Source: Lama guanicoe
Lineage: Eukaryota
Assembly: GCA_013239625.1 (NCBI GenBank)
Contig: MU053881.1
Coordinates: 1,240,001 to 1,304,000, forward strand
DNA length: 64,000 nucleotides
Direction of reading: 5' to 3'
A model generated the notes under the pieces. That model was not told the origin of the DNA. It saw nothing but the letters and a program-made list of their open reading frames with translations, and did not search any database. Below, piece by piece: positions 4,680 through 63,201 of this stretch; position 1 is the first letter of the stretch, and each line of letters opens with the position of its first letter. Position numbers and translations under genes: made by a program.

Positions 4680-4814
4680 CTCTTTTTAAAAAAATTTTCT
4701 TGGAGGGGAGGTAATTAGGTTTATTTATTTTTAGAAGAGGTACTGGGGATTTAACCCAGGACCTCGTGCATGCTAAGCACGTGCTCTAGTGCTTGAGCTA
4801 CACCCTCCCCACTT
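4680..4814 (-). mobile_element. tRNA-derived SINE (camelid Vic-1-like) with 15-bp target-site duplication
   Basis: Minus strand reads GGGGAGGGTGTAGCTCAAGCACTAGAGCACGTGCTTAGCATGCACGAGGTCCTGGGTTAAATCCCCAGTACC followed by AAATAAATAAACCTAATTACCTCCCC. TSD TGTACCCATCATTTC at 4665-4679 and 4815-4829. Confidence 0.85.
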
Positions 4815-7132: not shown

Positions 7133-8713
<1,581 letters not shown>

Positions 8714-10659
8714 TCAAAGATGTCCCTACAAGGGAAGAGAGCTAGCTGTAAGGGGGGGGAAGTAGAAGCAGGGCAGGCAGAGGGCAGCGTGAGCTGTGCA
8801 GGAGGGACGGGCACCGAAGTCACCGACCACTGGACAAGGCTACATAATGAAGATGGAACAGGGGAGACAGACAGACAAGCCGGGACCGGGAGAGGCAGAC
8901 CAGGAAGCCCTGTCACGCTCCTCGGGCATCCCTGCCAGCAGTGCCTTCCCTCCTGCAGCACCGTCCGCAATTCTGACAGTAAGTCTTCACAGAGCATCAC
9001 AGTGTAACCCAAGGAAAAGACTGTCTACCCTGGAGTGAGGCAAACTTGGGTTTAAACACTGGCTAACACTTACCATCTTAAGTCATAACTTGTTTCTCTG
9101 GGTCTGAGTTTTCACAGATATAAAATGAGGATAAAATAATCTGATAAGGATTAAGTAAAATGTACATAAACTATCCTGCAGGAACACAGTTGTCTGGAAC
9201 ATCAAATACCAGGATATACTTGAAGGGAGGACGACACAACCTAAAAGCCCCCCACCTTGGCCCCCCAACTTTAAGGAGTACATAATTTTCTCACTTCCTT
9301 CAGGTGAGAGAGCCCTAAAGGGCCCCACCCTTTCCTTAAAGACAGGACCTGGTGGCAGGGGCAGGGCAGGCAGGGGGAATCTGCTGGAGATGGGGCTGAA
9401 AGAAAGACCTGGCAGCCACTCAGACTCTTATTTTCTCAGATCCCATTTCACATCCCAGACGAAACAGCCCAGAGACAATGAGAGGCAGAGGGCAGGAAGC
9501 TACAAATGGAGAGTCAGCTGGTCAGCTTGATCAGGATTACCAGACCAGAGATCCACACTGAACCAACAGACCAAAGGCCTGTGGGCAGGAGGCTTTACTG
9601 CGAAGCAAAAGGTATGTGTTAACTGGACCTCCTCCTTCCAGCCTGACCTGCTTACGAAAAGGAAGAGAAAAAGTGGAAACCCGAGTAGGCGCCACCTCTA
9701 CAGCACATACACGGCCAGGTGACCTCAGAGAGGACCTGTCTGGTCCAGCGTGAAACACCAGCAGGCACACCGGGACCGGGGCTGCCTCCTGCCCCGCCTC
9801 ACTACGTCACAGCCAGCTGTGCAACGGAGGTTCTCTGAGAACATCCTGAGTGGGGCATCTGTTCACACTGCTAGACGAAGTCCAGACAGGCAGAACTATT
9901 CAAACATTAATGATGCACAGAAGATACCCAAGTTGGGAACTAGGTAGAGGTTCAAGAAACGTTTAAGATAATAAAATCGGGAGAACGAGGGGGAAAAAGC
10001 ATAAAAACCAAACAGGAGAATAAATGCTTCCGATCATCAAAAGACATAAAAAAGAAAGTTAACAAAAAATAAACGAAAGGTACATACCAGGAGAAGATAT
10101 TTGTAACACATGACCTGAAAAGAGCTCTAGAACGTGGACTTGGGAAACAATGTCTGTGGAACACCATGCCCGCTAGAAAATGGGCCAAAGACTTGAACAG
10201 GCACTTAAGGGAAGGAACCCTGAACAGCGAGTAAACATAAGCAAAGATGCCAACCCAGCAGTAACCAGGAGAAGGCTGATTACAGCCCCCGGGAGATACT
10301 ATCACCACATGCACCGGAGTAACAATTCAAAAACTCAGGCTGACAGCTTCAGATTTTAGAAAGACACACCGTCATGGAACCTGCACGCACTGTTCGTAGG
10401 AGTGTAATTTGATTCAAGTATTTGAAAAACAGTTCAGCACAACCTAGTGATGTAAACAGGCACACAGACTGTGATCCAGCGAGTCCTCTAGCAGGTACAT
10501 ACACAAGGTAACTGGCCAAGGTCCACCGTGATTCGTAATTTTTAAAGGAGCATTGTGTACAATAGCAAAAAAATTGGAAACAACCCAAATGTCCAGCAAC
10601 AAGAGAGGGGATAATTAAACTGTCAAATGTTTATGGAACAGAATACTTGAAAACAGTGA

Positions 10660-10930
10660 ATGTTACAGATTTCATGTCTGGGTCTCCCCCAAATTTGTAT
10701 GTTGCAGCCTAAGCCCTAAAGAGACAATATTAAGAGCTGGAGTCTTCGGTCATTAAGTCATGAGGGTAAAGCCCCTTGTGATGGGATCAGCGCCCTTGTA
10801 AGAAGCGGCACACACCAGAGAGCTTGCTGTCTGCTGTGAAACAGGAGGGCCCTCACCCGAAACCCAACCGTGCTCGCACCCCGGCCTCAGACTTCCAGCC
10901 TCCAGGTAACTGGGCCTGCTCCGTGCAAGG
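10660..10930 (+). mobile_element. MLT1-like MaLR LTR fragment
   Basis: CCCCCAAATTTGTATGTTG...CCTCAGACTTCCAGCCTCCAG hallmark motifs. Confidence 0.6.
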
Positions 10931-11073
10931 AGGAACACACTTTTTGGAAACAACTACATTTATTATAGCCTTTTACATTAACTTTCCTACTAATGGAAGC
11001 AAAGATGTGTGCCTATATTAAACATTAATTAAGAGGCTTATGTTAGCATGAAGGTACAGAGTTTATGAATTCT

Positions 11074-11132
11074 GTGTGTGTGTGTGTGTGTGTGTACACA
11101 CACATATATTTACACACACACACACACATATA
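11074..11132. repeat. (TG)n/(CA)n compound microsatellite
   Basis: Directly visible. Confidence 0.9.
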
Positions 11133-13069
11133 CTCAGAGGCAGCGACCCAGTACATCTCTGAGAGGGATACAAAAATCATGTATAAAACATGAACAGGTT
11201 TCCATGTTCACAGGTAGTTCAAGGTAGCTTCCTGGACAGCTTAACATGTCATAGAACCCTAACGGCACCTTATTTTTCAGACATAATCTTTGATAATAGA
11301 TTTCTAATCCTTTACCCACGTTCTTACCTTTGTTTCCTTCATAACTGAAACCTTAACTGATTTAAGTCCAATGACCGCTGATCAAAGGATAAAAATTCAC
11401 TGCTTTCCACATTCCATAACTTCCTTTTCCATGTCAGCAAGTTAACTAGATAAAACTGCCTCTAGGAACAACACTTTTATCTTTACATTTGCGACACAGC
11501 TTTTATAAGACACGAGCAAAATTTAACAAAGCATTCAACAACTGTACACACGGACACTTCAGTACAGGAAAAGAAAACCATCATCTAAAAAAGAAAATTA
11601 GGCCAGGAGGCACAAGTTCTATTTTTTCAGAGCAAGGCAAGGAAAGAAAGTTATGATTTTTTTTTACAATTGGCATTAAGCTCGAAGACCCAAGAAAACA
11701 AAGAGCCTGGTTCAAACTCCGGCCTGCCCTTTGACTTCTCTGGGCCTGCTCCCTCCACCGCCGAGGGGCTGGGAGTACCCACCCTGGGGGAGTGTGCTGC
11801 TGGGTCGATCAGATGACGCCGGGGCGGGAGCTGAGCACGGCGCTCAGCTGCCGCTTTCTCATCTTGGGTTTGGACCGCACAGTGAGACCAACGGGTGGCT
11901 TAATCTGGCAATAACGGCGGAGAAAACCAGGAAAGAACAAGACCTGGCGTTTGCACACCATCACGTTTTCTGGGCTCCGTTCTCTGCCTCCTCGTTTCTG
12001 TGTTGAGTTTCTCCTCTCTCAAGGATGTCCCTCTGCTCTTGCAAATGCATTCAAGGCTTTTCCTTGGTCAAAAGCACACAGGAGGCACTTGAGCTCTGAC
12101 TTCTTTCAGTTCCTGCCCTTCTTTTTCCTTCAAAGTAAACCTTGTTGAAAGGACAGTCTGTACCTAGAAGACTTTGCTTGTTTCCTTCCTCACGCTCCCA
12201 CCCACCGCACGTTTCCCGCAGACCACAGCGGTCTTCCCCGGGTCCCAGGCCACCTCCTCAACGCTCAGACCAGCGACACTTCTCATTTCTTACTTGGCAT
12301 GCCACCCTCTTCTCTGTTTTTCTCTCTTCCCTTGACCCAGCTCTCCTCCATAAACTCTCTCCTCCCTCTCTGACCACTCCTTTTATTCACTGAGATACAT
12401 GTCACAAATATGATTATAACTCTCAAAGCTATAGTTTTACCTGATTACTAAACATTCTACTTAATGCCATCTAATAGTCACTCAACAAACATAGTAAACA
12501 CCTACTCTGGCAGACAGTGTGCTAGGCAGGGGATACATAAAGAGAAGTAAACTCAGTCGTGACAATTCCATGAGCCTACATATTAGTGGCGAGACGAATA
12601 TTCAAAGAGACAGGAAAAATACGGTATGAAATGCAGCATGTAAGTGAAGAATCTTTAGGATTCAGGCCAACAGAGAAGTTGGAACATGGGTAAAAATGTG
12701 GGAGAGGAAACACAGCATGAACAATACCTTTGTTTGCCTCTGCTGCTTCCATAAAACCCACCAACATGACAGCGGCATAATGAAAAAGTCATAAACAAAT
12801 CCACTAAAATAATCTGGGGAGGAAAGAGGGAAAGGCTGCATGCACATGCCAAAAGAGAACAAAAACAAACCCAAAAACCCCAACCAAAAAAATAATTTAT
12901 ATATCCTCCTACAGTCAAGAGAAGTTAATGCATGCATTTAAAAAGATTGCTATTTAAAAAGGAGGAGCACTCTGAGGTTAGAAGGAGCACAGAAATAGAA
13001 AACACGAGAGTAGAAATAAGTTTTCTCACAGAAGGGCTGGAAGGCAAAATTTAAGCAAACCTTGGCATC

Positions 13070-13440
13070 CCGCACCCTTCCCTTCACACAATGCCATGCG
13101 ATTTACTGCAGGGTCTTTGCACCTGCTGTTCCCGGTACCCAGAATGTTCTCCCACGTGGCCCATCACTCTTGAGTATCTGTTCAGTATCCCTTTAAGAAG
13201 AGGCCTTCCCTGGACACCCCTGTAGAGCAGCACTCTGCTAACTGATTGACTTTCCTTACGATGCTCTGTTTTCCACACAGCACCCGACTACCACATTCAT
13301 TCCCCACCTTCTCCCTCCCTGCCTTCTTTCTTTATTAATTTATTGTCTCCCTGCTAGACTGTAAGCTCCACGTGGAAACTACCTGTTTTGCTGCTGCTCT
13401 GTCCACAGTGTTAGGAACAGGGCCTAGTGCTCCAAAAATA
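13070..13440 (+). mobile_element. L2 LINE 3' fragment
   Basis: CAGGGTCTTTGCACCTGCTGTTCCC...GAGGCCTTCCCTG...CTAGACTGTAAGCTCC motifs. Confidence 0.65.
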
Positions 13441-14029
13441 TCTGGTGGTTATTTATATAAGAATACAAATAGCGATAGTAATCGAATCCACAGAAATCTG
13501 TAATAAAGTTATATCAAAGCTACCTTAAGTGATCATTTTATACTTAAAAAATTAGCATTCAAAATATAAGATGATATCCAAAAGTCGTGCAATATGCAGT
13601 AGAGCCAGGAAGACGTGTACATCCTTCGACCCGCTGGCTCTTCTAGAATCCTGCTCTTTAGAAAGCTTGCTGGAAACAAGCCGTGGTGTTCCTAAGATGA
13701 TTTTTATTCCTATCAATATTTTTTATAAAGATTTCTTTTATTACTTTTTACTTAGGTAGCTGTACACTATCCAGAGATCAAACAGTATTGGCCTCTCTCT
13801 TCAATTTAAACAATGTATAAAAAGAAGTGGTGATCAACACTTCCGTGTCTAGTAGTAAAGATAAAGGTGTTCCATGTGGAGAAAAGTCAGGGATAACGTC
13901 TAAAAGAGAAATTCCAGTTGTGAGGGGGGTTAGAAGGCTGATAACAAAGAGCAAGAAGCATTCAGTGCTTAGAGGAGCGTGGGACTGAATAGGAAGCAGA
14001 TGCAGATTAAACACTGAGGGACAAGAACA

Positions 14030-14165
14030 GGCGGGTGTAGCTCAGTGGTAGAGCGTGTGCTTAGCATGCACAAGGTCCTGGGTTCAATCCTCAGTACCTC
14101 CATTAAAAAATAAACAAATAAATAAAAATATAATTATCTCCCCATACCCAAAATAAATAAATTAA
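14030..14165 (+). mobile_element. tRNA-derived SINE (Vic-1-like)
   Basis: A box TAGCTCAGTGG, B box GGTTCAATCC, then A-rich tail and TAATTATCTCCCC. Confidence 0.85.
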
Positions 14166-14703
14166 GAAAAAATGCTACAAATGTAGCTGTTTCTGAGGCA
14201 ATGGAAATGTTTGTGCCAGTTATAAAATTCTGGTTTCTGAAGTGAAAAAAAAGTGAATGAAGGGCTTCAAATGGCAAAGTTTCCTCTTTTATGGGTGAGC
14301 TGTATTCCATTACATATACATGCTGCATCTTCTTTATCCATTCATCTGCTTACGTGCACTTACAATGCTCCATATCTTGGCAATTACAAATAATGTTGCT
14401 ATTAATAGCAGGGTGTATGTATCTGTTTGAGTGAATTCTTATTTTGTGGTTGGCTTTATTCCTTTGATAACTCTGTAAGTTTAAAAAGCTAAAGCTCTAA
14501 ACGTTCTTAAGAACAATGAACAGTACATATATATAAATTTTAAAAAATGCGTGCACCTCGGGAGGGTGAGCGACACCAGCAATGCGGAGGCATCTGAGAA
14601 AACACACAGCAAGTGGTGCAGGTCTTAAGAGACCAAGGGAGCCCTGACGTGGTTCTCCCCATGGTGCCGCTCCCGGGGCGAGTGCTGGCAGCCTGATCCT
14701 TGC

Positions 14704-14793
14704 CCGGGGAGAGGCACCCTGGGCGTTCTTTTGTCCTCAGGCTTAGTTCTTGCTCCAGCTGAGAAGTCACATTTGGTTTGGAAAGATGGTGCC
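14704..14793 (-). pseudogene. Fossil KRAB-B exon of ZFP2
   Basis: Acceptor TTCTGAGCAG. The 90 nt read (G)HHLSKPNVTSQLEQELSLRTKERPGCLSP, similar to KRAB-B SKPDVISQLEQ. Donor is GC (G|GCAAGG). Confidence 0.8.
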
Positions 14794-15078
14794 CTGCTCA
14801 GAAGGAGAGACACTAAATGTGGGTTCTGAAATGAGTTTGAGCACCACTCCCAGCCCATGTCTCATCGCTTCCCCTCAGGGCTTCTGAGGTTCCCATTTTC
14901 CCTTTTCTACAGAAAACGCTTTTCGCCTTGAAAGAGAGAACACCAAGCAGCCCGCCCTGAGGCGACGCCTGTAGCATCAGGATGCCAAGCCCAGTTCATG
15001 ACGTTCACAGGCTGCACAAGACGACAAAGGCGGGAAGGTGGCAGCAGGCAGGCCTGAGTTACAAGGAGACGTCCTTCC

Positions 15079-15190
15079 CCAGTGAAGCCAGGTCCCGGGA
15101 GCTCTCAGCATCGCTCCCCTGAGCAGCGTCTAGCTGGATCCACCCCTCCCGGATGAAATCCACAGCCTCATCCTCGAACATCCCCGACTC
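15079..15190 (-). pseudogene. Fossil KRAB-A exon of ZFP2
   Basis: Acceptor GCTTCAG. Reads ESGMFEDEAVDFIREGWIQLDAAQGSDAESSRDLASLG, similar to [24 protein letters not shown]...NLxSLG. 112 nt long, donor GT mutated to GG (G|GGAAGG). Confidence 0.85.
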
Positions 15191-16154
15191 CTGAAGCTAT
15201 AAATTCCCGCTCAGTGAAGGGTTACGCCAATGACACCCTCCGAAGGGAGTGGAAAAAGCAAGCAGCATTAGAAGGGACAGGACAGAGAGATGTATGTGAG
15301 GAAAACGTGTCATCCTCCCAAGGAAACCAAACACCTGCAAGAAAAACGGACATTACCATGAAATAACCAGAGGTAAATACAGAAAGTGCTTTGGCATTTA
15401 GGGACGGAAGAGGAGGTCCAGGGGGCTGTGGGGGAAGCTACCCAAGGCTGCTCTAGGTTAGCACCAAGGAAGAGATGGCGTTCGGATCGCCTCCTATTCA
15501 CCCACGGATGACGGACAGAGGGGTCCCCAACCCTAAAGAGCACAAGATGGCCAAACACGTGACACCCAGCACTGGACAGATGAGACTGCGAGCAGTTTAT
15601 CAGTCACATATCCTCACCCGCATGGCGTGGAGGGCCCTCGGGGGTTGCACTTGGGAGCAGAGAACTAGCAGGGGCCGTGGGAGGCAGGCTCTGTACTGAC
15701 GAGGGGGTGAGGGGACCCTTGGTAACCATGGGAAGATGGGATCAGCTTGTTTGAACAACTCTGTGGGCTGGAAGGGAGATGAAACCCACTAGGCTGAGGA
15801 CTGGGAGGGGTGTACCTGGCTGGGCTGATAGGGGAGCTGGCCAGGCAGGTGGGGGGAGCCCTTCCCACCGGGTGGGGGTGTGTCTGGCGAGAGCAGGGGA
15901 CCTCACAGCTAGGTCTCTGGAGTGACGTGAGGCCCCAAGTTGTAGACGCAGCACATGGAATTCTAGGCTTTACTATAACTGGGCAGGAATCCAGTTAGTG
16001 GGGGGAGCATGTGCGAGCGGGATAAATCCAAAAAGTGGCTGGCCTACGAGACGACCAAGAAAACACCCATCTTGACTTGAAAATGGCATTTCCAATTTAT
16101 AAGCCCATTTCAGCCTTGTTTTCTAGCCCTCAGACTAGGAAATAAAACTAAGCA

Positions 16155-16645
16155 TTCATCTCTGGGTAATGAGCGTGATGGTTGACTTGACTGGGCCAAG
16201 GCATGCCCGAGTAGCTGGTAAAGCATGACCTATTTCTGAGCGTTTCTGCAAGGATGTTCCCACCTGCATTGGGAGACAGAGTCCACAAGAGGTGGGAGGG
16301 CTTTGCCCAGTGGGCTGAGGGCCCGGACAGAACAAAGAGGCTGAGGGAAAGGCAAGTCCGCTCTCCCTGCCTGAGCTGAGACAGCCGTCATCTGCTGCCC
16401 TTGGTCATCCGTGCCCCTAGTTCACGAGGCTTCTGACTCAGGACCTGCACCATCGGTCCCCGGACTCGGCCCCCGGGTCTGGAGCGGGATGGCAGCACAG
16501 TTTCCTGGGCTATCCGGAGTGCACACGGCAGATCGTGGGACTCTCTGTCATCCACAGTCGTGCACCCCCACTCCCCACGTAATCTCTCTGTACATCTACG
16601 TATATCCCATTGGTTCTGTTTCTCGGGAGAACCCTAATGCATACA
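16155..16645 (+). mobile_element. MLT2-like (ERVL) solo LTR
   Basis: GACTTGACTGGGCCAAGG near the start; ends ATTGGTTCTGTTTCTCGGGAGAACCCTAATGCATACA. Confidence 0.7.
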
Positions 16646-17134
16646 AGGAGGGAACACGAACTGAGTGGTGGTTACCATAAATGATAATTCTGGGACTCAG
16701 TTTTGTACCTGTAGGGAATTCACATACCTCAGTTCATAGCATTCAAATGACAACCAGCTAGACTCATAGCATTAAAGCCATCATTCTATAGATGTGGGAT
16801 CTGAGGCCCAAAAAGGTTAAAGAACCTCTCCAAGATCATACAGCTTGAACCCAAGGCCACCCAACTCCTCCTGTGTGAGGGGAAGCCCAAGGAGAGAGAC
16901 CCTTGCCGCCCTCAGCAGGTGAGAGAGGGAGAGAAAGACAGGCGGGGAGATGGAGGAGACTCAGGACCAAAGGTCCGGGGAAGGAGGGCTTCAAGGACGA
17001 GAGTGGTCCGTGCTCTCAGAAGCCGGGTGGGTCAAACAGAATGATGAGTGGAAAGAATCTGCTGGTTCCAAAATGAGCTTTCAGCTGAGAGGTGAAGGCA
17101 GAAGTCAGCTTACAGTGGATAAAAGAATAAAAGA

Positions 17135-17260
17135 GAGGGAGGCTATAGCTCAGTGGTAGAGCGCATGCTTAGCATGCACGAGGTCCTGGGTTCAATTCCC
17201 AGTGCTTCCATCAAAAAAATAAGTAAGTAAGCCTAATTACCTCCCCTACCCAAGGGGAAA
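17135..17260 (+). mobile_element. tRNA-derived SINE (Vic-1-like)
   Basis: GGCTATAGCTCAGTGGTAGAGCGCATGCTTAGCATGCACGAGGTCCTGGGTTCAATTCCCAG followed by CCTAATTACCTCCCC. AAGAATAA flanks both sides (possible TSD). Confidence 0.88.
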
Positions 17261-20200
17261 ACAAGAATAACAGGAAAATAAGGAACCAGAAGCGGTCAGA
17301 TGGTTACCTCAAACTTCTTGTGAAGATGAGAGGTATGACTGTAAGGAAAGAAGGAGTAAGTTGTGGAAATGGACAAGGTCTTTATTTAAGGACACAGAGC
17401 GCTGTAATGTGCGAATAGGCAAACGGGAGGAAATCAGTGGAGAAGGAAGGACTAAAGAGACTAGAGACAGAGCAAAACCAATTTCCAAGCAATTTGTGTG
17501 TTTTACATCCTGCTGGCTGTGGACCCCAGAAAAAGTGTCAGCCCTGAGGCACAGAGTTTACTATCTTCCTACCTCATTATTTTCTCCTAATATTTTAAAA
17601 TCAATGTATCAAAAAAATAAAAAATGTTTAAAATCACTGACAAATACTATCAAGAAAAGTGAAAGTAGCTACTAGTAAGATATAAATACATGGGAGACTT
17701 TCCATTTTATGAAAGGAAAAAAGGAAATAAGAAAAATTATCAATGCAACAAATTTAAGGAAAAGAAACAAGAACGCATAGTAACCATAAGTCATTAAGTA
17801 AGCAGCAAAAGGCTTGATACACGTATAGCAACAAATATAAATGGGTTGACTTTATCTATTAAAAAACAAAACCTGTAAGGTTGGTTTAAAATCCAATTAA
17901 ATGGCACATATGAAACACCTAAAATACAAACCAAAAAGTGAAAGAAAAAAAAAAAGGCGGGGGGTGGCGAGGGGTAGTAGAGCTGAGACACGCAGTCAAG
18001 TGCAAACAAGCAGAAAAAGAAGCTGAGAGGGGAACAGATCTCAGTAAGGTGAGGCAGGATGTACGCGGAAACAAATCATAAGCTGCTTCTTTGCAAAAAG
18101 GATGACAGATCAGAAATATGACATTCTCCTTCCAAAAATCAATCTACTTTCAATAAATTCGTAGCAAAGCAATTGCCTTGTTGGCTAAACATACGGGGCA
18201 AAATTAAAAGCCCCAATGCAGACTCCTCTGGGCTAATTTCCTGGTCCCCCCACCTCCCCTGACTCTCATCCCCTCAGGTGCAGGGCCCCCCGCCAGCACA
18301 GGCCTTGTCTCGGCTGTGGAACTGTGGGGCCCTGTCCACACAAGTACAGGATGGCATTTTTTTTGTCATTTAAAAAAAAAAACGTTTTTAACACCTTTAT
18401 TGTGGTATAAAGGCTGAAATGAAACTTAACTGCACCGCTCGTAGAGCATGTTTGTTGTTAATCCCCTAAGACATTATTTTCTCCCTTTCTCCTTTGCACT
18501 TACTCCGGGTTTTTCTCCCCAGCACTGCACGGAGCACAGGATAACAGCACGGTGTCTGAAATAAGCAGCTTCCTGGGTTTCTCTCGCTCATGCAGAGGTT
18601 TTCCTAAACCTAAGACACAGGCTTTTTTGATGTTTTTATTCCTTAAAAAGGTCAAGTATCAAATGGAATAAACAGGGATATCTTAATGATAAAAGCATGA
18701 TTAATAATAATAATAAAAGTATGATTAATTAATATTAATAATAATAATAAATAAAATTAGTAATTAATAATGATGAAGTTTCAGGCGCCACGGCAACAAA
18801 ATATCTTCAAAGAGCATTCTTAAATAATTTTTTTTACAAAATCATAATTGTGATTAAACATATTCCAGTCACTACAGCAACAAAAAATATGAAACACCTC
18901 AGAATACACTTAACAGGAATATGCAAGGTCCTCATGATCAAAGTTAACAGAAGCCATAATGAAAGATCTGAATAGAACAAAGGGTGATTTTTTCCACTCA
19001 ACAGGAAGAATAAACATTGTGAAGATGGTGGTCCTCTTCAAGGTGATACAGATTTAATGGAAACCAGATCAAAATTGCTTATTTTTTAACTGTTTCTGTT
19101 AGAACTTGTTATTGTTAATACAATTTGACCACAAGGATAAATGTATAAGAACAGTAATCAAAATTTTGAAAAGAAAAATAAAGGGGAATTTTCTTTACAA
19201 AATAAAATAAATTCTAAAACAAATAAAACAGTGTGGAACTACAGAAGAAAAAGAGCAACAGAACAGAACCCAGAAAAACTGACTCATACGTTTATGTGTG
19301 CATGTGAATATATAATATGAAAACACATACATTTATGTATTATATATAAATATTATTTATATATAGATTAAGTATATTTTAAAGGTAGCCTCTCAGATCT
19401 ATGGAAAAATAACTAGATTATGCAATAGATTCTTTCAACAGTTTATCACAGTTCGAATGCCTCAGAGGTGCCACTCTGGCTCTGCCTAGCTAAAACAGAC
19501 CCCCAGTCACACTCCCCCAGGTCACCCTGCTGTGTGGCCATCACGGCACTGAACAGTGTCCTCAGGAACACTGCTTCTTCACTGCTGCCCCCTCCTTCTA
19601 GAAGAGAAGATCGAGGAGAAAGGGGCTTAGCCTGTCTCATTCACTGCTATCTTCCCAGCATCCAGAACACAGCTTGGCAGGGCATTTGGCACAGTAGGCA
19701 GCTGCTGAATTCCTGTTCAATGAATGGATGGATGATGAGTTGCCTCACCACACTGTGTTAAATAAAGTAAGATTCTGACCTCACGTTATATTCAAGAAAG
19801 TCCAGATAGCTCAAGGATTCAAATTTAAAACGATAAAGCTAATAGAAAATGTAGAAAAGTACTTTTATAATCTAAAGGACCAGAAAGCCTTTTAGAGCAA
19901 TGATTCCAAAGCCAAGCCAAGGAAAAGGAAAGGTAACTGCACGAAACTTCAAAATTTATTTGCCGCAGAAGATTATAAACAGATTGAAAGGAAAAATTAC
20001 AAGAAACAAGAATGGCAATTTATGGCAAAGGATTAATATCCACTTTATACAAAAGGCTTCTTTTATATACAAACAACCCAACATAAAGATGGGCAAAAGA
20101 TGTTAACAAGGTATCTTAAAAGGACAGAAGAATGTACATCCATAGTTATTTTTGAGGATTTGAGACCTGAAATTATATCTTACAGCCTTAAAAAAAATTT

Positions 20201-21219
20201 TACAAATATATGCCTAATATTTATATTCAGAAAAAAAGATAAAATTTAAAGGCAAATACAAGTCATACTCAGGCAATTAATAGTCACATCAGTGTCCAAT
20301 GTCGGAGAGATAAAAACATGAGGAAAAATGAAAAAAGGACTTGAGCTCTAATGCTGCCCTGATGCGTCTCAGACCAATCACTGCGCTCTTCGAAAGCGTC
20401 AGGTCATCGAAGACAAAGACCCAGGAAGTGTCTCAGGTGAAGGGAGACTAAGGAGACGGGACAGCTAAATGCCAGTTGTGCCAGTTTGTTTTTTTATGCT
20501 GTACACCAGAAGTTAATACAACACTGTAACTCAACTATACTTCAATAAAAAAATTAAAAAGAAAAAAATTAAATTAAATAAAGGAAAAAAAAAAAAAACC
20601 CTGCGGAAGTCTTACCAAGGCCAAGCATGTGGCAAACACTCAGTTAATGCTGTTACCTCTGTCATCACCAGGAGGAACTGATGCTTCAGAGAAGTCAAGT
20701 CACTTGCCCCAGGCAGCACAGCTATTATAAAATGGTAGACTTACACTTGGGACACTCTTGACTCCGCTACAGCAAATCCTCTCCAGGTGTCCCTGCCCAA
20801 TCGTGCTGCTTCTGGTCGCCACACTAATTTCTATTTTCAGGTCTTGAACACTGACAATCCGGGTACTTAACCATATTTGTTCTTATTATCATATTCATGT
20901 GCAATCATGGAGCCTGTTCCTTCTAAAGATGCGACCTTTTATATGTCCCCTGAGAGTCCATGAACCCTAGAAGCAGCAGGACTGTCTCTCACATGATTTC
21001 TGTTCCTTTCCTGACCCTTGAACAGCACCAACAGCTCAGGAGGCCAGGGTATCCAGCTGAAGTGACAGCTGAGAACAGAGCTGAGGGGTACTGAGGGGAG
21101 CTGTGTTGTAAATATCCAACATTTGGACATCGCAATAGCTCTGTCTTCTGCGGTGAGACCCACCGACAGTCTAGGAGCAAGGAGCAAGGGAGAGGTTTGA
21201 GCGAGAAACATGAGCTCAC

Positions 21220-21316
21220 CTGTGCTCTCAGTGGTGACGGCCCAGCAGCCATTGCCTTCTCCTTCCTTCCCGTGGGGTCCTTCCTTGGGGACCGGCAGGA
21301 GCCAGAGGAGTCAGAG
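21220..21316 (-). other. ZFP2: ZFP2 upstream exon with the ancestral KRAB-leader start (MAAGPSPLRAQ, ATG at 21252)
   Basis: Acceptor TTTTCCTTCCCTCAG, donor CAG|GTGAGC. The 33-nt phase-0 leader has the same geometry as the ZNF454 leader. Confidence 0.7.
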
Positions 21317-22629
21317 CTGAGGGAAGGAAAAGACATGAGAAACAAGCCTTCTGCAACAACAAAAATACAGTGCCTACAGACAAGCCAAGTAACAAGTGTA
21401 TGGACACCGGGAATTGACACGTTGTAACTGCCTATACTTCAATTTTTTTAAAAAATAATAAAAATAAATTGAAATCTCTAAATAAAAGTCAAATAGTTAA
21501 AAATAATTTCACTTTATAATAAATAAACCTATAAATAACAATAAATCTTAAAAAAAAGAAGTGTATGGTATCTACATAAAGAAAACTATCATTTTTATTT
21601 ATTAAGCTTATTTGGATATATAAAGCTAAACAGAAACATCCCATATTCCTGGAGAGAATGGCACAACGCGCTAAGCTGTCACTTCTTTGAAATTAACTTA
21701 TAAACTGAACATATACCGAGGCAAGTTATAACTAAATAATAATCTTGTGAAGTTAGTTATGGAAAAGATGATTTTTAAAAAAAGTTAATTGTGTTAATGT
21801 AACAACAGCTAGGAGGTTTCTGAAAGGAAATAGTGATGAGTGAGACTCTGCCCACCAGACATTATAAAGCTATGATCATCAGAACAGAGTGTTACTGAAC
21901 AAGCAAAATCACTCATTCACCGGATGTACTGCTGACCACCTACTGCGTACCAGGCGTCATTCTTAGGGGAAGGGATGAATATAGCTGTAAACAAAACAGA
22001 TCAAGTCTCTCTGCCCTTATGGATGTTACAGTCTGACAGGGAAAAGGGTCAGTGGAACAAATTAAAATCCTACCAACACAAAGAGTTCAGAAAAAAATTT
22101 ATATGTAAGAACTCAGGTTATGAAAAAAGTGACATCACATCAGTGAAGGAAGGATGTGAAATTAACACTTAGACTTGGTGTCGGTCAGTCAGGCACCCTT
22201 AGCTGCAACGTTTATAAACTACTATTTTCTAGAGAGACTAGGACAGGAGGTATCAAAAGCCTTACAGTATGACCTAGAAATGTCACTTGAGAAGATTTAT
22301 AGAATGAGACAAGAATACAAAGATATATGCAGCCAGATGGCCTATATTGTTTATAATACAGGGGGGAGGGGAAAAAAAGCAACCCTAAGAGCACAACGCC
22401 TAAAGAGAAGATTAAATACGGCACAGACATACTTTTCCTCACATTCATTAGCCGTTCTTGAAAATTGCTATTAGTAGATACTTCCAAATATTAAGTTAAA
22501 ATAAGTTTATACTGCATATTGATTAAGTTGTACTTACGCAGATAAAAATATTTATTTAAAAAATCACGGAGCTTAAGATTCGTGCACTTTAAATCCCTTA
22601 CCAAATGTATTTCGTAATTTTTTTTTTCT

Positions 22630-22811
22630 GGTGCACCGTTCCTGGAGGTACTGCAAAGCAGGTGGATGCGTGGAGTGGACGTAGCAAGGTGCTATCCCAA
22701 CTCGTGCTCCAAAAATCCATTTAATATATTGTCCTCGGGTAGAGGCCATATCGGATATTAAACTGATAGGAAAAGATACACTTGATCTTAGCCAAAAGGC
22801 CGAGAAGTGAT
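22630..22811 (-). pseudogene. Near full-length U2 snRNA retrocopy
   Basis: ATCACTTCTCGGCCTTTTGGCTAAGATCAAGTG...AATGGATTTTTGGAGC...CCAGGAACGGTGCACC, then an A10 tail (22618-22627). 3-nt deletion in the branch-site pairing region. Confidence 0.92.
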
Positions 22812-23069
22812 CATAACTCATTTTTAAAAGTAAATGGAGAAAAGGATACTAGTACCCATATGTTTGTTTAGAAACAAAACATTTCTATTCTTATACAGAT
22901 ACATGCCGCCATGCAGATTTTGATAAGTTTTCAAACGATCTTTTTTCCTTTTTGCTCCTCTGAATCTTCTAGCTGCCCTACAATGAACTTTGTCTTCCTT
23001 TCTTCCTTTTATTTATTTATTAAGAGAAAAGAACTGATTTTAAAAAAAGAAAGAAAATGATTCACTCAA

Positions 23070-23880
23070 GTAGAGCCCCGCACAGGGTTGGCCTGCCCTT
23101 TCTTACGGAGGTGAGTCGAGGAGCGCCCCGCCCCCGCCCCTCGGAGTTAGGAAACCACGGCGGGCGAGTCCCCGAGAGGCGGCTCACACAAAGGGCAGGT
23201 GCTGGAGCCTGGAGCCCCAGCGCCCCGGTGCAGCATCCCCGACACTTCCGAGGTGGGTCCCAGGGCAAGTCCGCGGCGGGGAGGAGCCCGGAGTCCTAGC
23301 GACTCCCCGAGCTTGCGGCCCCTCGGACCCGGAGCCGCGGCGCCAGGGCCCCGCCCGCGCTGCCCCCGGGACAGCCCCTCCACTCCGGGTGGTCCCTCCC
23401 GGCCTGGCTTTGCGGTGAGAGGCGGCGCACCTGGAGCCAGGGGCCCGGCGCCGCGCAGGGCCGGAGAGGTCGCGCCCCGGCCCACCCTGAGGAGCCTCGC
23501 CCTCGGTGCCGGGCTCCTCCTGGCAGGACCTCCGGCTTCAGCCCGACTGGCGCTTCCCGTTGCGGCCCCGCACTCACCATCTCCCAGCGGGAGCAGGAGC
23601 CGCCGCCGGGGAACCGATGCGGCCCCGCCCGGCGCTTCCACCCCGGGCGCCGGACTACATTTCCCACAAAGCCGCAGGGGCGCGGCGCGGGCGTCGGAGT
23701 ACGCAGTTGCAGGCGTCAGAGTGCGCAGGCGCGGGCCCGCGGCAGGCCAGCTGCGGGCCGGGGGTTCCAGTGGACCGGAGGTGCTGGCTCCTGGGACGAC
23801 TGCATCGTTTCGGTCAGGTCGTGGCTTGCCACGCGATGAGCGAGCTGCTCGGCGACCTTACCCCGGCTGCGTTAAGGTAG
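23070..23880. promoter_or_regulatory. CpG-island promoter and exon 1 of ZFP2 with a ZNF143 motif
   Basis: CpG-dense. Minus-strand donor ATG|GTGAGT at 23578/23577. GACTACATTTCCCACAAAGCC at 23653-23673. Confidence 0.85.
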
Positions 23881-24289
23881 CCCCTCTCTGGAGTCTGTCG
23901 GTTTCTCACTCATGGGTAGGGGAGAAGGGGCAGACAGCCGTGGCGAAGGCTCACCTTACTGCTCTGAGATAAATGGAGCCCTGGGGCGTCGCTTACAGAG
24001 TTGTTAGTAGAGTGAGCAGATGTGGTTAACGTTCCCGGTACACAGCGGGCACTCCATGAATGGTGGTTACTGGGCTTCCTTTCTAGCTCAGTGTCAGGTG
24101 CTGCCCTGTTTGCTCCAAAAGCATCACTGTGTAGAATGCCAAATCTCCAATTACATGTGTGGCCAGCTGGATCTGCCACCGGGATCTGGAGAGGGACATG
24201 ACATTTGGGGCAGATCAGTATAGTAGCTTTGATTGTAATACTTGGTTTTCTAAAAATAACTGCTAGTTTCCTCTGCCTCTTTCTGTTGG

Positions 24290-42960: not shown

Positions 42961-45350
42961 ACTCAGAGTTTTCCCTTCAGGGACATGTTCTCAACCCTGA
43001 GGAGGACTCGACACACCACGAGGTGGCCTTGGGGTATCTGGAAACATCTGGACTCCAGTCATAATTTCCATTCTGTTTAATCCAACCAGCACTTCACTCA
43101 GGAAGGGGGACTCCGCGTCCACCAGAGGCTCCCAAGGCGAACGGGACGGGAACAGTCCCTCCTTCCCTCCCTCTGATCATTCACGCCAGACTCGGCCCAC
43201 ACCTGCCGGTGGCCCTGACGCCCATCCTAACCCTCCTCTGGTTCCCTGCTGCCTGTGTTCTCTGTTTACTTTGTGACAGTTTCCAGTAGTTCCCACAAAA
43301 TTAGAACATTTCTCCCAAATGACAGTTACAAGATTGACAAGTGTGGTTCCCACCTCAAAAAATCTCAACTCGAGTGGGAAGGAAGCTCTCCCCTAAAGTG
43401 TGGGGGCTTTAGGGATCGACACAGCCTGTCCCACAGCCCCTCTGCTGGGCCCCCATGGGGAGGGGCCAACACTGACCCGTCTGGACCCGACCACAGCCTC
43501 AGACAAGACCTCCCACGTCTGCCAACTGGCTCCACGTGGGCTGCAGGCTGATCCGTGCGGAAGATGAGCCTGGGCCTGTGGCCAGGCTACCTCAACTCTC
43601 AGAGGCCGTGCCTGGCTCCCAGGCAGACCAGGTCCTGTGACAGGGCTCCAGGCTCAGCGTGATCTGGTCCTTGTTCCTCCCTCCTCGCTCCATCTGCACC
43701 TGCTGCCTGCCTCTCTCTGGACTCACACACGCCCTTTCCTGAGTCTGAACGCTTCTCCACATCCTGAGAGTGGTCCTTGCTGGCGGAAGCCTTTGCTGAC
43801 ACCGGCCCTCCTCTTCCACGTTCTCACCGCACCTGCAGCTCTCCCGCAGGGTCCCCACCAGACCCTGTCACTCCACACCCCTGGGTGCACCGAGCTCATG
43901 AACACCTGTCTGCCCCTCGACTGAGCTCCGCCAGGGCAGGACCTGCGTCCTTCTGCCCAAGGCTGCACCGCCAGTGCCCAGCACGGAACTCACTCACCGT
44001 CTACTACGGGACTGGAAAGCGGGGGGCGAGGGTTGGAACCTGGGTCCCCCAGAGCCTAGGCCTCCCCGATTCCACAGCTCTCAGCCCCCAACTTCCACAG
44101 CAGCCACCTCTGCCGTTTCTCTCCCCTGGTGACTTCTTCTCAGGCTCAGCCACAGATTCCTCCTTCTTAACCCACCTCATAAACGGGGAGGTCTCCTGGG
44201 ACTCTGTCCTCACCTGCTCAGCTCAAGGCTCCAAGCGCCACCTTTGCCCGCCAGCTCCCTGACCACCCTGTTGAGTCCCAACCCCGTTTACCTCCCACAA
44301 CTGTCCCCCGGCGACCTCTACCCGTATTTCACTCACATCTCAAATGAAACCCATCCCACACCAAATTCACCCTGCACCCTTAACAAAGGGGCCCCTCTCT
44401 TCCCTCCTGACCCCCTGCACGTGCCTTCCTCCAGGCCCTAGTAGCGCAGCGATCTCCACAAGGGTCCCACCCCCAGTTTCTCCTCACTTCAGTTCTAAGA
44501 TCCAACATTTCCCAAGTGACCATTCTTGTTAAACACAAATCACATAATAAGGACTCCAGGAACATACTCTCCGAAAAATTACAAACATTACCTGTAAATG
44601 AAGTCCCCTTTCATCACACCCATTTTCAGCCCCGCTCCAAATGTAACTAGTTACCAGCTCAGAGGTGTCCCCTGACCTCCTCTGGGCACTGGCCATACTA
44701 CACGTACAGACACCCACGTAAGTTTCTTCACACATCAACAGCGACACGTCTTACTGACGCTCCATGACTTGCTTTAGTCCTTCACGTGCCCTGTTGCTCT
44801 GTCCACATCACTGCTCTTGCTCTCTGACTGCGGGGCTGTGGGCCAGCGCAGGGGCCCATCTCAGCTTCTAGCTCTGCCTTTACTGAAGGACACTTAAAGT
44901 GTTTCGACTCAGACCACTTTTTCTAAAATCTCAAGGATACAGGGTTCTCCTATTCAAAATCCTTGACTTACTCTCTCTTGTCAGTGGGCAGTTCACATCT
45001 CAGAAATGTACCAAAGCACCTGTCTGTCTAGTCTCATTTCCTTCCTCATCTCTTTTCCCACAGAAGCTGGGCTGGAGTCAGAATGGATTCTCTGCGAATC
45101 CTCAAATACACTGTTTGCTGAATGAATACATGAAAGTGGAGCCCTCCTCTGAAACAACAGGAAAGAGAAGAAAAAAGCTCCTGAGAGATTCGCCTGTGCA
45201 GTGATTACCAGAGCAGAAGAGGAAGCTTAGCCTCCCTTCTCCAGCGCTTCCGGGGACCGCGAACCTGGAGAAACCTTCCCGAGCAGCATCCCCAAGCCGC
45301 ACCCCCACTCACCCCCAGACGGCCGCCTGCAGACGTCCCCACCCACTCAC

Positions 45351-45446
45351 CTAGAGAGGCGCCTCCGGGACTGTCTCTCCCCACCTTCCAGGGGTCCTCT
45401 CCCTGCTGCAACAGGGAGATCACTTTGGGTTTGGAGAACGGGAGCC
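45351..45446 (-). CDS. ZNF354B: ZNF354B KRAB-B exon
   Basis: 96 nt with AG acceptor and GTGAGT donor; reads [31 protein letters not shown]. Confidence 0.92.
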
Positions 45447-45841
45447 CTGCTCATAGACAAAAAAGAGGAAACAAACAATAAAAAAATGAAAACAACAAAA
45501 AAAAACCTTGGTTTTGACACAAAGAGGTATCAGAGATCTGAGGGGAAACTCAGAGGACAATACAAGGAGCTTCTGTGGGTGTTCAGGCTGCGTCCCCACG
45601 ACTGAGGGGGTGTGTTAGGGAAACGGCGAGGGGCTCGTAGGACACACCCGGGTACTGAGTAGTTGTGTGTCGGGGAAATAGGATAAACACGCAGCCTTGA
45701 AACCATTAGCTTTCCACAGAAAGGGAAATGTTAGATGTACAGACAAAAGTGATATTTGTAACAGGTACGTATGGAAAGGATTATGTACCAGGCAGTTCGT
45801 TTAAAATGAGAAAACACTATGTGATTCCATCTGAAAAATGG

Positions 45842-46032
45842 TAGCAGTCAGCAAACTACGGGTCATAGGCCAAATCTAGGCCACTCTCTGTTTATACATG
45901 GCCCTTGAGGAAAGAATGGTTGAAAAAAAAGGAAAGAAAGGAATGGAGTATGTCACAGAGACCATATGTGGCCCACAAAGCCTAAATTATTTACTCCCTG
46001 GCCCTTTACAGAAAGAGTTTGCTGCTTCCTGG
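45842..46032. mobile_element. MER58-like hAT DNA transposon
   Basis: CAGCAAACTACGG...GGCCCTTTACAGAAAGAGTTTGCTG. Confidence 0.65.
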
Positions 46033-46275
46033 GAAAGAGAACTGGGAAACGCAAGCGGTGGGTCAGAGAAGAGGGTGGAGGCACGCTCTGTAGAAATGAG
46101 TGAACAACACATCACAGAACAGTCACAGTGCGAAATGTTTCCTGAACTATGAGGGAACGTCTAACGTGCAGCTCTGTAGATTTTCCCGACCACGGGGCGA
46201 TTCCATGTCTATCGGGGTGAAAAGGTTTTAAATTTATTTATGGACTCCGAATTGTAAGTGCTAAGGCAAAACTCA

Positions 46276-46602
<327 letters not shown>

Positions 46603-47109
46603 CTAGGTTCTGAAGGTTCCGGGTCATTTGTTTAGTGAACAACTGACCAGTGACAAACATACCCCGAGTCGCATGAAGTATGAAGTGGTCTTGTGTTAAC
46701 CAGTACAAGAGATGTATGGCGGTATTAAGGCCACTAGTGGGAGTGTTAACTAGAATAATCTTCCTGATGGCAATTTGATAACAGACATTAAGAGCTTTAA
46801 TTTTTTTTAATTGAAGTACAATTACAATGTGTCAATTTCTGGTGTACAGCACAATGTCCCATTCATGCATATACATATATATATATATTCATTTCCATAT
46901 TTTATAAGCTTTAAAATGTGCCTATTCTTTAACTCTCCAATTACTGTATTTGTTTCATAATGAACAGTGCACAAAAATGCACACAAAAGGACTTTATCAT
47001 GGCATTAGTAACAGCAAAAAAGGTAGAAACAACCTGAATAATCACTGATGGAGGCTAGGTTAAATAACTTAAAGCACTGTCTGTGTCTTCCTTGAAGTCT
47101 GCGGATGGT

Positions 47110-60239: not shown

Positions 60240-63201
60240 AATTTTTTTATCTTTACTAAGAAGTTTGCTATTTTTATTTTATTTTTATTTTTTAAACTTT
60301 TTTATTGAGTTATAGTCAGTTTACAATATTGTGTCAATGTTTCCAGTGTAGAGCACAATTTTTCAGTTATACATGAAGATACATATAGTCATTGTCACAT
60401 TTTTTTTCTCTGTGAGCTACCACAAGATCTTGTATATATTTCCCTGTGCTATACAGTATAATCTTATTTATCTATTCTACATATGCCTGTCAGTATCTGC
60501 AAATTTTGAACTCCCAGTCTATCCCTTCCCCCCCTCCTCCCCCTTGGCAACTGCAAGTTTGTATTCTATGTCTATGAGTCTGTTTCTGTTTTGTATTTAT
60601 GCTCTTTTTTTTTTTTGTAGATTCCATATATGAGCGATCTCATATGGTATTTTTCTTTCTCTTTCTGGCTTACTTCAGTTAGAATGACATTCTCCGGGAG
60701 CATCCATGTTGCTGCAAATGGCGTTATGTTGTCAGTTTTTATGGCTGAATAGTATTCCATTGTATAAATATACCACCTCTTCTTTATCCACTCATCTGTT
60801 GATGGACATTTAGGCTGTTTCCATGTCTTGGCTATTGTAAATAGTGCTGCTATGAACATTGGGGTGCAGGTGTCTTTTTAAATCCAGGAGCATGGGATAT
60901 CTTTCCATTTTTTAAAGTCTTATTTAATTTCCTTCATCAGAGATTTATAGTTTTCCGTGTATAAGTCTTTCACCTCCTTGGTTAGATTTATTCCTAGGTA
61001 TTTTATTACTTTGGGTACTATTTTAAAGGGGATTGTCTCTTTACTTTCTTTTTCTGTTGATTCATCATTAGTGTAAAGAAATGCAACTGATTTTTGATCG
61101 TTAATTTTGTAACCTGCTACCTTGCTGAATTCTTCAATTATTTCTAGTAGTTTTTGTGTGGACCTTTTAGGGTTTCCTATATATAGTATCATGTCATCTG
61201 CATATAGTGACACTTTTACCTCTTTTTTTCCAATTTGGATCCCTTTTATTTCTCTCTCTTGCCTGGTTGCTGTGGCTAGGACTTCCAAGACTATGTTGAA
61301 TAGGAGTGGTGATAGTGGGCAGCTTTGTCTTGTCCCAGATTTTAGTGGGAAGCTTTTGAGTTTTTCACCATTGAGTACTATGCTGGCTGTAGGTTTGTGA
61401 TATATAGCTTTTATTATGTTGAGGTATGTTCCCTCTATGCCCACTTTGGTGACAGTTTTTATCATAAATGGGTGTTGAATTTTATCAAATGCTTTTTCTG
61501 CATCTATTGAGATGATCATGTGGTTTTTGTCCTTTCTCTTGTTGATGTGGTGTATTACATTGATTGATTTGCGTATGTTGAACCACCCTTGTGTCCCTGG
61601 GATGAACCCCACTTGGTCATGATGTATAATCTTTTTTATGTGCTGTTGGATTATGTTTGCTAATACTTTGGTAAGGATTTTTGCATCTATGTTCATCAGT
61701 GATACTGGCCTATAATTCTCTTTTTGGGTGGTGTCTTTGCCTGGTTTTGGTATCAGGGTGACGGTGACTTCATAGAATGAGTTTGGGAGTATTCCCTCCT
61801 TTTCAATCTTCTGGAAGAGCTTGAGAAGGACTGGTATGAGTTCTTTGTATGTTTGGTAGAATTCCCTGGTGAAGCCGTCCAGTCCTGAACTTTTATATGT
61901 AGGGAAATTTTTTATTGCTAATTCGATTTCTTTTCCAGTGATCTGTTTGGTCAAGTGGTCAGTTTCTTCTTGATTCAATCTTGGTGGACTGTATATTTCC
62001 AGAAACTTGTCCATCTCCTCTAGGTTACCCATTTTGGTTCCATACAGATTTTCATAATATTCTCGTATGATATTCTGTATTTCTATGTTATTTGTTGTAA
62101 TTTCTCCATTTTCCTTTCTTATTTTGCTTATTTGTGCTCTCTCTTTTTTCTTCTTTGTGAGTTCGGCCAGAAGCTTGTCAATTTTATTTACTCTTTCAAA
62201 AACCAGCTTTTGGTTTGATTGATTTTTTCTATTTTTTTAAATCTCTATTTTATTTATTTCTTCTCTGATCCTTATTATTTCCTTCCTTCTGCTGACTTTT
62301 GGGGTTTTTTTTTTTTTTTTTTTTTTTTTTTCTTTTTTTGTTTTTTTTTTTTTTTTTGCTCTTCTTTTTCTAATTCTTTTAGCTGGTGGGTTAGATTGTT
62401 TATATGAGATTGTTCTTCTTTTTTGAGGAAGGCCTGTATCACTATAAACTTCCCTCTTAGCACTGCCTTTGCTGCTATCCCATAAATTTTGTGTGATTGT
62501 GTTTTCATTTTCATTTCTCTCAAGGTATTTTTTAAATTTTGACTTTGATTTCATCATTTATCCATTGATTTTTTTTTAATAGCATGTTGTTTAATCTCCA
62601 TGCTTTCCTTTATTTCTCCTTTGTTTCTCTGTAGTTGATTTCTAGTTTCATGGCATTGTGGTCAGTAAAGATGCATGAGATAATTTCTATCTTCTTAAAA
62701 TTGTTGAGATTTCTTTTGTGCCCATGTACATGATCAATCCTAGGAAACGTTCCATGTGCACTTGAAAAGAATGTATATCCTATTTTTTGGTGGTGTAATG
62801 CTCTGAAAATATCCACCAAATCTAATTTTTCTATTGTATCATTTAATTTCTCTGTTGCCTTATTTATTTTCTGTCTGGAAGATTTGTCTAGTGATGTTAG
62901 TGCGGTGTTAAAATCTCTGACAATGATTGTATTCCCATCCATTTCCCCCTTTATCTCTGTTAGTAACTGTTTTATGTACTTAGGTGCTTCTATATTGGGT
63001 GCTTATATATTAAGGAGTATGATATCCTCATCTTCTATTGCTCCTTTAATCATTATAAAATGTCCTTCTTAATCTTTCTTTATGGACTTTGTTTTAAAGT
63101 CTATTTTGTCTGAAATCAGTACTGCTACACCTGCTTTTTTGGCTTTTCCATTTGCATGGAATATCCTTTTCCATCCTTTCACTCTTAATCTATATGTATC
63201 C
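60240..63201 (-). mobile_element. Young 5'-truncated L1 (partial endonuclease, RT, 3' UTR) with an internal deletion and a 17-bp TSD
   Basis: 370-aa RT ORF at 60920-62032 with YADD; endonuclease ORF at 62610-62942; TSD TTTATTTATAACTTCTT at 60223-60239 and 63202-63218. Confidence 0.95.

What the first reader, a model, noticed from the sequence alone, without database searches (positions are those of the whole stretch)
14704..15190. ZFP2 keeps fossil KRAB-A and KRAB-B exons that are still in phase
Seen: degenerate KRAB-A (15079-15190) and KRAB-B (14704-14793) exons lie between the leader exon (21220-21316) and the finger exon, separated by a 285-nt intron. Joining leader (phase 0), A (112 nt, 15 shorter than the 127-nt ZNF354B exon), B (90 nt) and the finger exon (phase 1) gives a stop-free ORF. 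However, the A donor is GG instead of GT, the B donor is GC, and the DV, EEW and MLE motifs are altered. Established: ZFP2 is annotated as KRAB-less, and DV and MLE are important for TRIM28/KAP1 binding. Inference: this is a direct record of KRAB loss through splice-site and motif decay while 13 fingers stayed conserved.
Basis: partly seen in the sequence, partly recalled or inferred. Interest (0 to 1): 0.7.

Follow-up and report, generated by a model that had tools for sequence, protein, structure and literature searches.

The report
Dead KRAB exons, phase by chance
The zinc-finger gene ZFP2 in this camel-family genome carries two broken exons of a former gene-silencing (KRAB) domain, a leftover already catalogued in human, mouse and dog, and their unbroken reading frame is likely an accident of two separate deletions rather than a sign of function.

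Summary
Observation confirmed. Exon A scores 23.7 bits on Pfam KRAB (cut-off 20.4; neighbouring intact exon 89), exon B matches a KRAB-B profile, donors are GG and GC, and leader+A+B+finger exon gives 568 stop-free codons. All 13 DNA-contact fingerprints equal human and dog ZFP2. But 'still in phase' misleads: the 15 missing bases are a 14-nt plus a 1-nt deletion. A related species (about 94% identical) has the 14-nt gap but keeps the single base, so its exon is frameshifted; the frame here was likely broken, then restored by chance. Six of 11 KAP1-contact residues are lost. An ortholog fragment from another mammal splices A-B-finger exon but with its own frameshift, so splice-site decay is likely a late, lineage-specific event, not the cause of KRAB loss. 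The remnant is in print: human ZFP2 is one of 15 KZFPs with no KRAB-plus-finger transcript, and human, mouse and dog models list its KRAB motifs. RNA junctions in this species remain untested. The scan's earlier notes held nothing on this gene. Ordinary, low interest.

The parts
23578..23680 (-). Putative first exon in a CpG island, ends ATG|GTGAGT; 5' end approximate
   Evidence: Sequence; CpG o/e 0.80-0.88 at 23001-24000; no RNA support obtained
21220..21316 (-). Putative leader exon with ATG and 11 codons, phase 0 donor; likely the ancestral start
   Evidence: Strong acceptor and GT donor. Homology to neighbours' leaders not shown: score 35 to the left neighbour, 29 to the right one, shuffles reach 37
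15079..15190 (-). Decayed KRAB-A exon, 112 nt; 14-nt deletion between 15113 and 15112, 1-nt deletion at 15105-15107
   Evidence: Pfam 23.7 bits; gap model; 7 of 48 near-invariant bases changed against 0 of 56 in ZNF354B
15077..15078 (-). KRAB-A donor GG in place of GT
   Evidence: GT in 29 of 29 intact KRAB-A exons scored
14794..15078 (-). 285-nt A-B intron; read-through of exon A stops 6 codons into it
14704..14793 (-). Decayed KRAB-B exon, 90 nt, GC donor at 14702-14703
   Evidence: Own-genome KRAB-B profile 18.3 bits; 54% identical to the spliced B segment of P0124
7133..8604 (-). Finger exon: linker and 13 C2H2 fingers; likely working start ATG at 8525-8527 in strong context
   Evidence: 13 C2H2 motifs; 13 of 13 fingerprints equal human ZFP2; Met also present in P0121-P0124

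Best explanation
ZFP2 here carries decayed KRAB-A and KRAB-B exons upstream of an intact 13-finger exon; it likely makes a KRAB-less protein from the ATG inside the finger exon, and the exons' unbroken frame is likely a chance sum of a 14-nt and a later 1-nt deletion. Shown: KRAB homology, GG and GC donors, the 14+1 gaps, loss of 6 of 11 KAP1-contact residues, a frameshifted exon A in a related species. Inferred: KRAB function lapsed long before the camelid lineages split; exon A is skipped or its inclusion is destroyed by a stop in the intron; exon B may survive as 5' untranslated sequence through its GC donor; the protein binds the same DNA sites as human ZFP2 without recruiting TRIM28 through a KRAB.
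For: 14+1 gap model scores 90.8 bits against 58.3 for one 15-nt gap and 78.7 for the best pair of in-frame gaps; it is the commonest pairwise solution under 3 of 4 gap settings (9, 17, 24 of 30 exons). A contig of run X13 (organism A, 34 other letters and 5 gap letters over 15036-15627) has one extra base exactly at the 1-nt gap and no 14-nt insertion: its exon is 113 nt, the Met-Leu-Glu codons are intact but out of frame, and the joined frame stops at codon 97 (window's B and finger exon used). Substitution density in exon A, 8 of 112, is no lower than in the upstream intron, 22 of 406 (Fisher p 0.49). 7 of 48 near-invariant KRAB bases changed against 0 of 56 in two neighbouring KRAB exons. 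Against the residues named in PMC9753469, V9, E17, Y29, V32, M33 and N36 are lost or out of frame; D8, I11 (Val), F13, L21, E35 remain (my mapping). P0124 joins A, B and the finger exon but reads A in a shifted frame with a 1-nt slip and has no Pfam KRAB hit. Human ZFP2 has no annotated KRAB-plus-finger transcript.
Against: A stop-free, net in-phase A+B is not the expected result of neutral decay: 3-13% in simulation with an assumed indel rate of 1/12 of substitutions; 16-44% stop-free with substitutions alone. The two deletions lie only 6 nt apart, as compensatory pairs in working genes do, and could be one complex event with a later re-insertion in organism A. Exon A has 5 nonsynonymous and 3 synonymous differences (pN 0.058, pS 0.118), too few to exclude weak constraint. 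The relative's evidence is one contig. That organism A shares GG is read from an unlisted position (30 of its 34 differences were listed). No transcript of this species was seen.
Confidence: 0.87

Rival explanations
1. Timing rival (compatible with the exons being dead here): the KRAB was not lost once early but several times, and some mammals still make KRAB-ZFP2.
For: Lesions differ by lineage: 14-nt deletion and GG donor in camelids, a 1-nt slip and non-Gln, non-Met residues in P0124. Mouse (ABZx12), human (AZx13) and dog (AZ) models carry KRAB motifs; that paper's automated models were required to be stop-free. A 509-aa Atlas cluster named ZFP2 (54 members) drops out when clusters with any PF01352 member are skipped, the 461-aa one stays. 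The decay estimate is wide: 0.16 substitutions per site, 95% range 0.06-0.35.
Against: Different lesions are also expected after one early loss. The point estimate is about five times the per-branch distance to organism A, which fits an early loss. The Atlas name is automatic and may cover paralogs; those gene models are predictions. No intact KRAB-ZFP2 protein was retrieved: 0 of 4 ortholog fragments.
Confidence: 0.25
2. The 1-nt deletion was selected as a compensatory frameshift and this lineage translates an N-terminally extended ZFP2 through non-canonical GG and GC donors.
For: Stop-free 568-aa frame; low prior under neutral decay; deletions 6 nt apart; compensatory pairs are a described process (PMC8935012, abstract).
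Against: GG donor against 29 of 29 GT; nearest GT sites at 15070 and 15062 are weak; KAP1 contacts lost; the relative is frameshifted. GG donors are almost never used (recalled).
Confidence: 0.03
3. The exons belong to a separate, lost zinc-finger gene or are chance matches.
For: B has no Pfam hit and A only just passes the cut-off.
Against: A and B profile hits far above background; single copy in the genome; no C2H2 motif in 8605-14703 or 15191-21219; P0124 physically joins both exons to the ZFP2 linker.
Confidence: 0.02

Closest known systems
Human ZFP2 (ZNF751) in the KZFP census of de Tribolet-Hardy et al. 2023 (PMC10547255; read: passages, rows of Tables S1 and S2)
   Same: Same gene, listed as KRAB plus fingers over 20 kb, status 'no transcript' = none containing both domains; 15 genes have this status
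   Different: The passages and rows seen give no lesions, splice sites or order of events; camelids not covered
ZFP2 ortholog group in Liu et al. 2014 (PMC3971581; read: passages, section 6, supplement rows; supplementary file 1 not searchable)
   Same: Human AZx13, mouse ABZx12, dog AZ; fingerprints identical to the window's 13 in human and dog
   Different: Typed there as KRAB genes; here the KRAB is shown to be decayed
ZNF252 and ZNF16 of the 8q24.3 cluster (PMC2865497; read: passages)
   Same: Lineage-specific disruption of a KRAB domain, isolated degenerate KRAB exons
   Different: ZNF252 also loses fingers; ZFP2 keeps all 13
Pairs of compensatory frameshifts (PMC8935012; read: abstract)
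   Same: Two indels that restore a frame
   Different: Described in coding exons; here the exon has a dead donor, so the pair is likely unselected

Membership tests
Functional KRAB zinc-finger repressor | KRAB-A box above the Pfam PF01352 cut-off | tested here: met
   23.7 bits against 20.4; ZNF354B 89.2
Functional KRAB zinc-finger repressor | KAP1-contact residues (ZNF93 D8, V9, I11, F13, E17, L21, Y29, V32, M33, E35, N36) | tested here: not met
   6 of 11 lost or out of frame (mapping by alignment)
Functional KRAB zinc-finger repressor | 127-nt KRAB-A exon with GT donor | tested here: not met
   112 nt, GG; controls 27 of 29 at 127 nt and 29 of 29 GT, drawn from the 30 best-scoring loci, one dropped
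Functional KRAB zinc-finger repressor | Transcript joining KRAB and fingers in frame | tested here: inconclusive
   No joint seen in 4 runs laid on 14440-16100; contigs cannot show absence
Functional KRAB zinc-finger repressor | TRIM28 binding and silencing | not testable with these tools
   Needs an assay
ZFP2 orthologs | 13-finger array with the ZFP2 fingerprint | tested here: met
   13 of 13 equal to human and dog; Atlas first hit ZFP2, 0.99
Selected compensatory frameshift pair | Two indels summing to a multiple of 3 | tested here: met
   14 + 1
Selected compensatory frameshift pair | Lies in a translated exon | tested here: inconclusive
   Dead donor argues against; no RNA or peptide data

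The most novel reading that the evidence does not exclude
After the camelid lineages split, a 1-nt deletion repaired an older frameshift in ZFP2's dead KRAB-A exon and was kept by selection, so this lineage again translates a KRAB-derived N-terminus through GG and GC donors: a resurrected exon.
Probability: 0.03. Interest if true: 0.7.

Novelty: already known. Interest (0 to 1): 0.2.

Why it matters
Modest. It is a clean worked example of how a KRAB zinc-finger gene sheds its repressor domain while its DNA-binding array stays unchanged across placental mammals, and a warning that an open frame over fossil exons can be secondary: gene predictors would join these exons and call a KRAB protein. 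If intact KRAB-ZFP2 exists in some lineage, ZFP2 would allow a same-fingers, with-and-without-KRAB comparison.

Tried and rejected
Ortholog retrieval was poor: linker search 0 of 18 candidates; whole-protein search listed 120 of 2624 hits, none above 66% identity, so none a true ortholog; exact look-ups 0 of 2; only four fragments came, of which one (P0124) has KRAB-derived sequence, one starts at the internal Met, two have other N-termini. RNA or RNA-guessed contigs of organism A (X2, X6) have no cover over exons A or B and no joint was listed: not used as evidence, since contigs and filters leave holes. The X13 contig is unspliced across both ends of exon A and may be DNA. Leader homology to neighbouring genes was not above shuffles. 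A single 15-nt deletion and in-frame gap pairs were rejected. Literature searches found no paper on ZFP2's KRAB decay; subscription papers are not in the library. PMC3126818 (passages, supplement 5) lists ZFP2 only for finger-number change. Earlier scan notes: nothing relevant. No structure or complex was predicted.

Full report
Observation. Exon A (15079-15190, minus) ends in a GG donor, exon B (14704-14793) in a GC donor, and the join of leader, A, B and finger exon is stop-free for 568 codons. Exon A passes Pfam KRAB at 23.7 bits (cut-off 20.4), against 89.2 for the neighbouring intact exon and 83.9-99.2 for the 150 scored matches of 423 candidates in the genome. Exon B has no Pfam hit but is the second locus found by a profile of 10 KRAB-B exons from this genome, 18.3 bits against 3.7 for the best unrelated tile of 6384. 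The stretch is single-copy, and a contig of run X18 matches 14516-16100 without a difference; X18 may be the assembly's own sample.

Identity. The finger exon has 13 C2H2 fingers whose 13 fingerprints equal those tabulated for human and dog ZFP2; the Atlas first hit is ZFP2. A Vicugna pacos ZNF180 linker matches the genome at 99%, which points to a South American camelid. No other finger array lies between the KRAB exons and this exon.

The phase is secondary. Against 30 intact KRAB-A exons the 15 missing bases resolve as a 14-nt and a 1-nt deletion 6 nt apart: 90.8 bits against 58.3 for a single gap and 78.7 for the best in-frame pair. The codons of the MLE motif are still visible, read out of frame. 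A contig from organism A (run X13, about 94% identical; an Old World camel would fit, a guess) has one extra base exactly at the 1-nt gap and lacks the 14 nt. Its exon is 113 nt and the joined frame stops at codon 97. No change is listed at the GG donor, though only 30 of that contig's 34 differences were listed. The simplest order is: 14-nt deletion and donor loss in the common ancestor, then a 1-nt deletion in this lineage that restored the frame. This rests on one contig, and a single complex deletion with later re-insertion is not excluded.

Decay looks neutral. Exon A differs from organism A at 8 of 112 sites, the upstream intron at 22 of 406 listed sites (p 0.49); 5 changes are nonsynonymous and 3 synonymous, pN 0.058 and pS 0.118, too few to settle constraint. 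Seven of 48 near-invariant bases are changed against 0 of 56 in two neighbouring KRAB exons; corrected distance 0.16, range 0.06-0.35, about five times the per-branch distance to organism A. With a camelid split near 16-17 million years (recalled) this allows a loss anywhere from about 30 million years ago to the base of placentals. Six of the 11 residues that Stoll et al. name as KAP1 contacts required for silencing are lost (PMC9753469, passages and section 8). Against my reading: a stop-free, net in-phase pair arises in only 3-13% of neutral simulations, so the open frame is a mild coincidence.

Other mammals. P0124, an unnamed 257-aa product of a 923-nt contig, runs from sequence like the intron upstream of A through A in a shifted frame, then B, then the ZFP2 linker. 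Read in the KRAB frame its codons allow DV and EEW but not the conserved Gln or Met, and the frame slips by one base near the exon end. So in that species both donors work while the KRAB frame is broken; splice decay is not the general route. The other three fragments show no KRAB. A 509-aa Atlas cluster named ZFP2 has at least one KRAB-bearing member, an untested lead.

Mechanism. Likely the mRNA skips exon A (read-through stops 6 codons into the intron); B, with a usable GC donor, may be kept as untranslated sequence. Either way the leader ATG opens only a short upstream frame (19 or 35 codons) and the protein would start at the strong-context ATG at 8527, a Met shared by all four ortholog fragments.

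What is known. De Tribolet-Hardy et al. 2023 list human ZFP2 as a KRAB-plus-finger locus of 20 kb with no transcript holding both domains, one of 15 such genes (PMC10547255, passages and supplement rows; bioRxiv version, passages). Liu et al. 2014 list KRAB motifs for human, mouse and dog ZFP2 (PMC3971581, passages, section 6, supplement rows). Lineage-specific KRAB disruption is described for ZNF252 (PMC2865497, passages). Searches found no account of the camelid lesions or their order; subscription papers and bioRxiv supplements were not visible.

Verdict. A real fossil of a known kind in a gene already flagged for it. The new detail, a frame broken and then restored by chance, removes the feature that made the finding look striking. 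Interest 0.2.

Noticed in passing
window 22626-22811 (-): Full-length U2 snRNA retrocopy with an A-tail in ZFP2 intron 1 (Rfam RF00004, 122 bits).
   Followed up: partly
window 44449-46800 and L032:650-3001: At least 2352 bp around the ZNF354B KRAB exons are 99.7% identical, without gaps, to an inverted copy about 58 kb away on the same contig: likely gene conversion between ZNF354A and ZNF354B, or an assembly effect.
   Followed up: partly
window 8525-8532 (-): If the leader splices straight to the finger exon, its 35-codon upstream frame stops at a TGA overlapping the first of the two ATGs (TGATGATGG); possible translational control, untested.
   Followed up: no
window 23578-23580 and 21311-21316 (-): The putative first exon ends in ATG; joined to the leader it gives a two-codon upstream frame (Met-Leu-stop).
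   Followed up: no
window 4735-4807, 14031-14102, 17139-17210: Three tRNA-like heads, probably one SINE family, about 80% alike.
   Followed up: no
window 60920-62236 (-): 438-codon stop-free stretch that reads like LINE-1 ORF2 (name recalled).
   Followed up: no
window 15036-15627, run X13 record 7: Contig of depth 13.6 against 2-4 for nearby contigs, with 18 unaligned letters at 15627; might be an alternative exon that contains exon A, or plain DNA.
   Followed up: no
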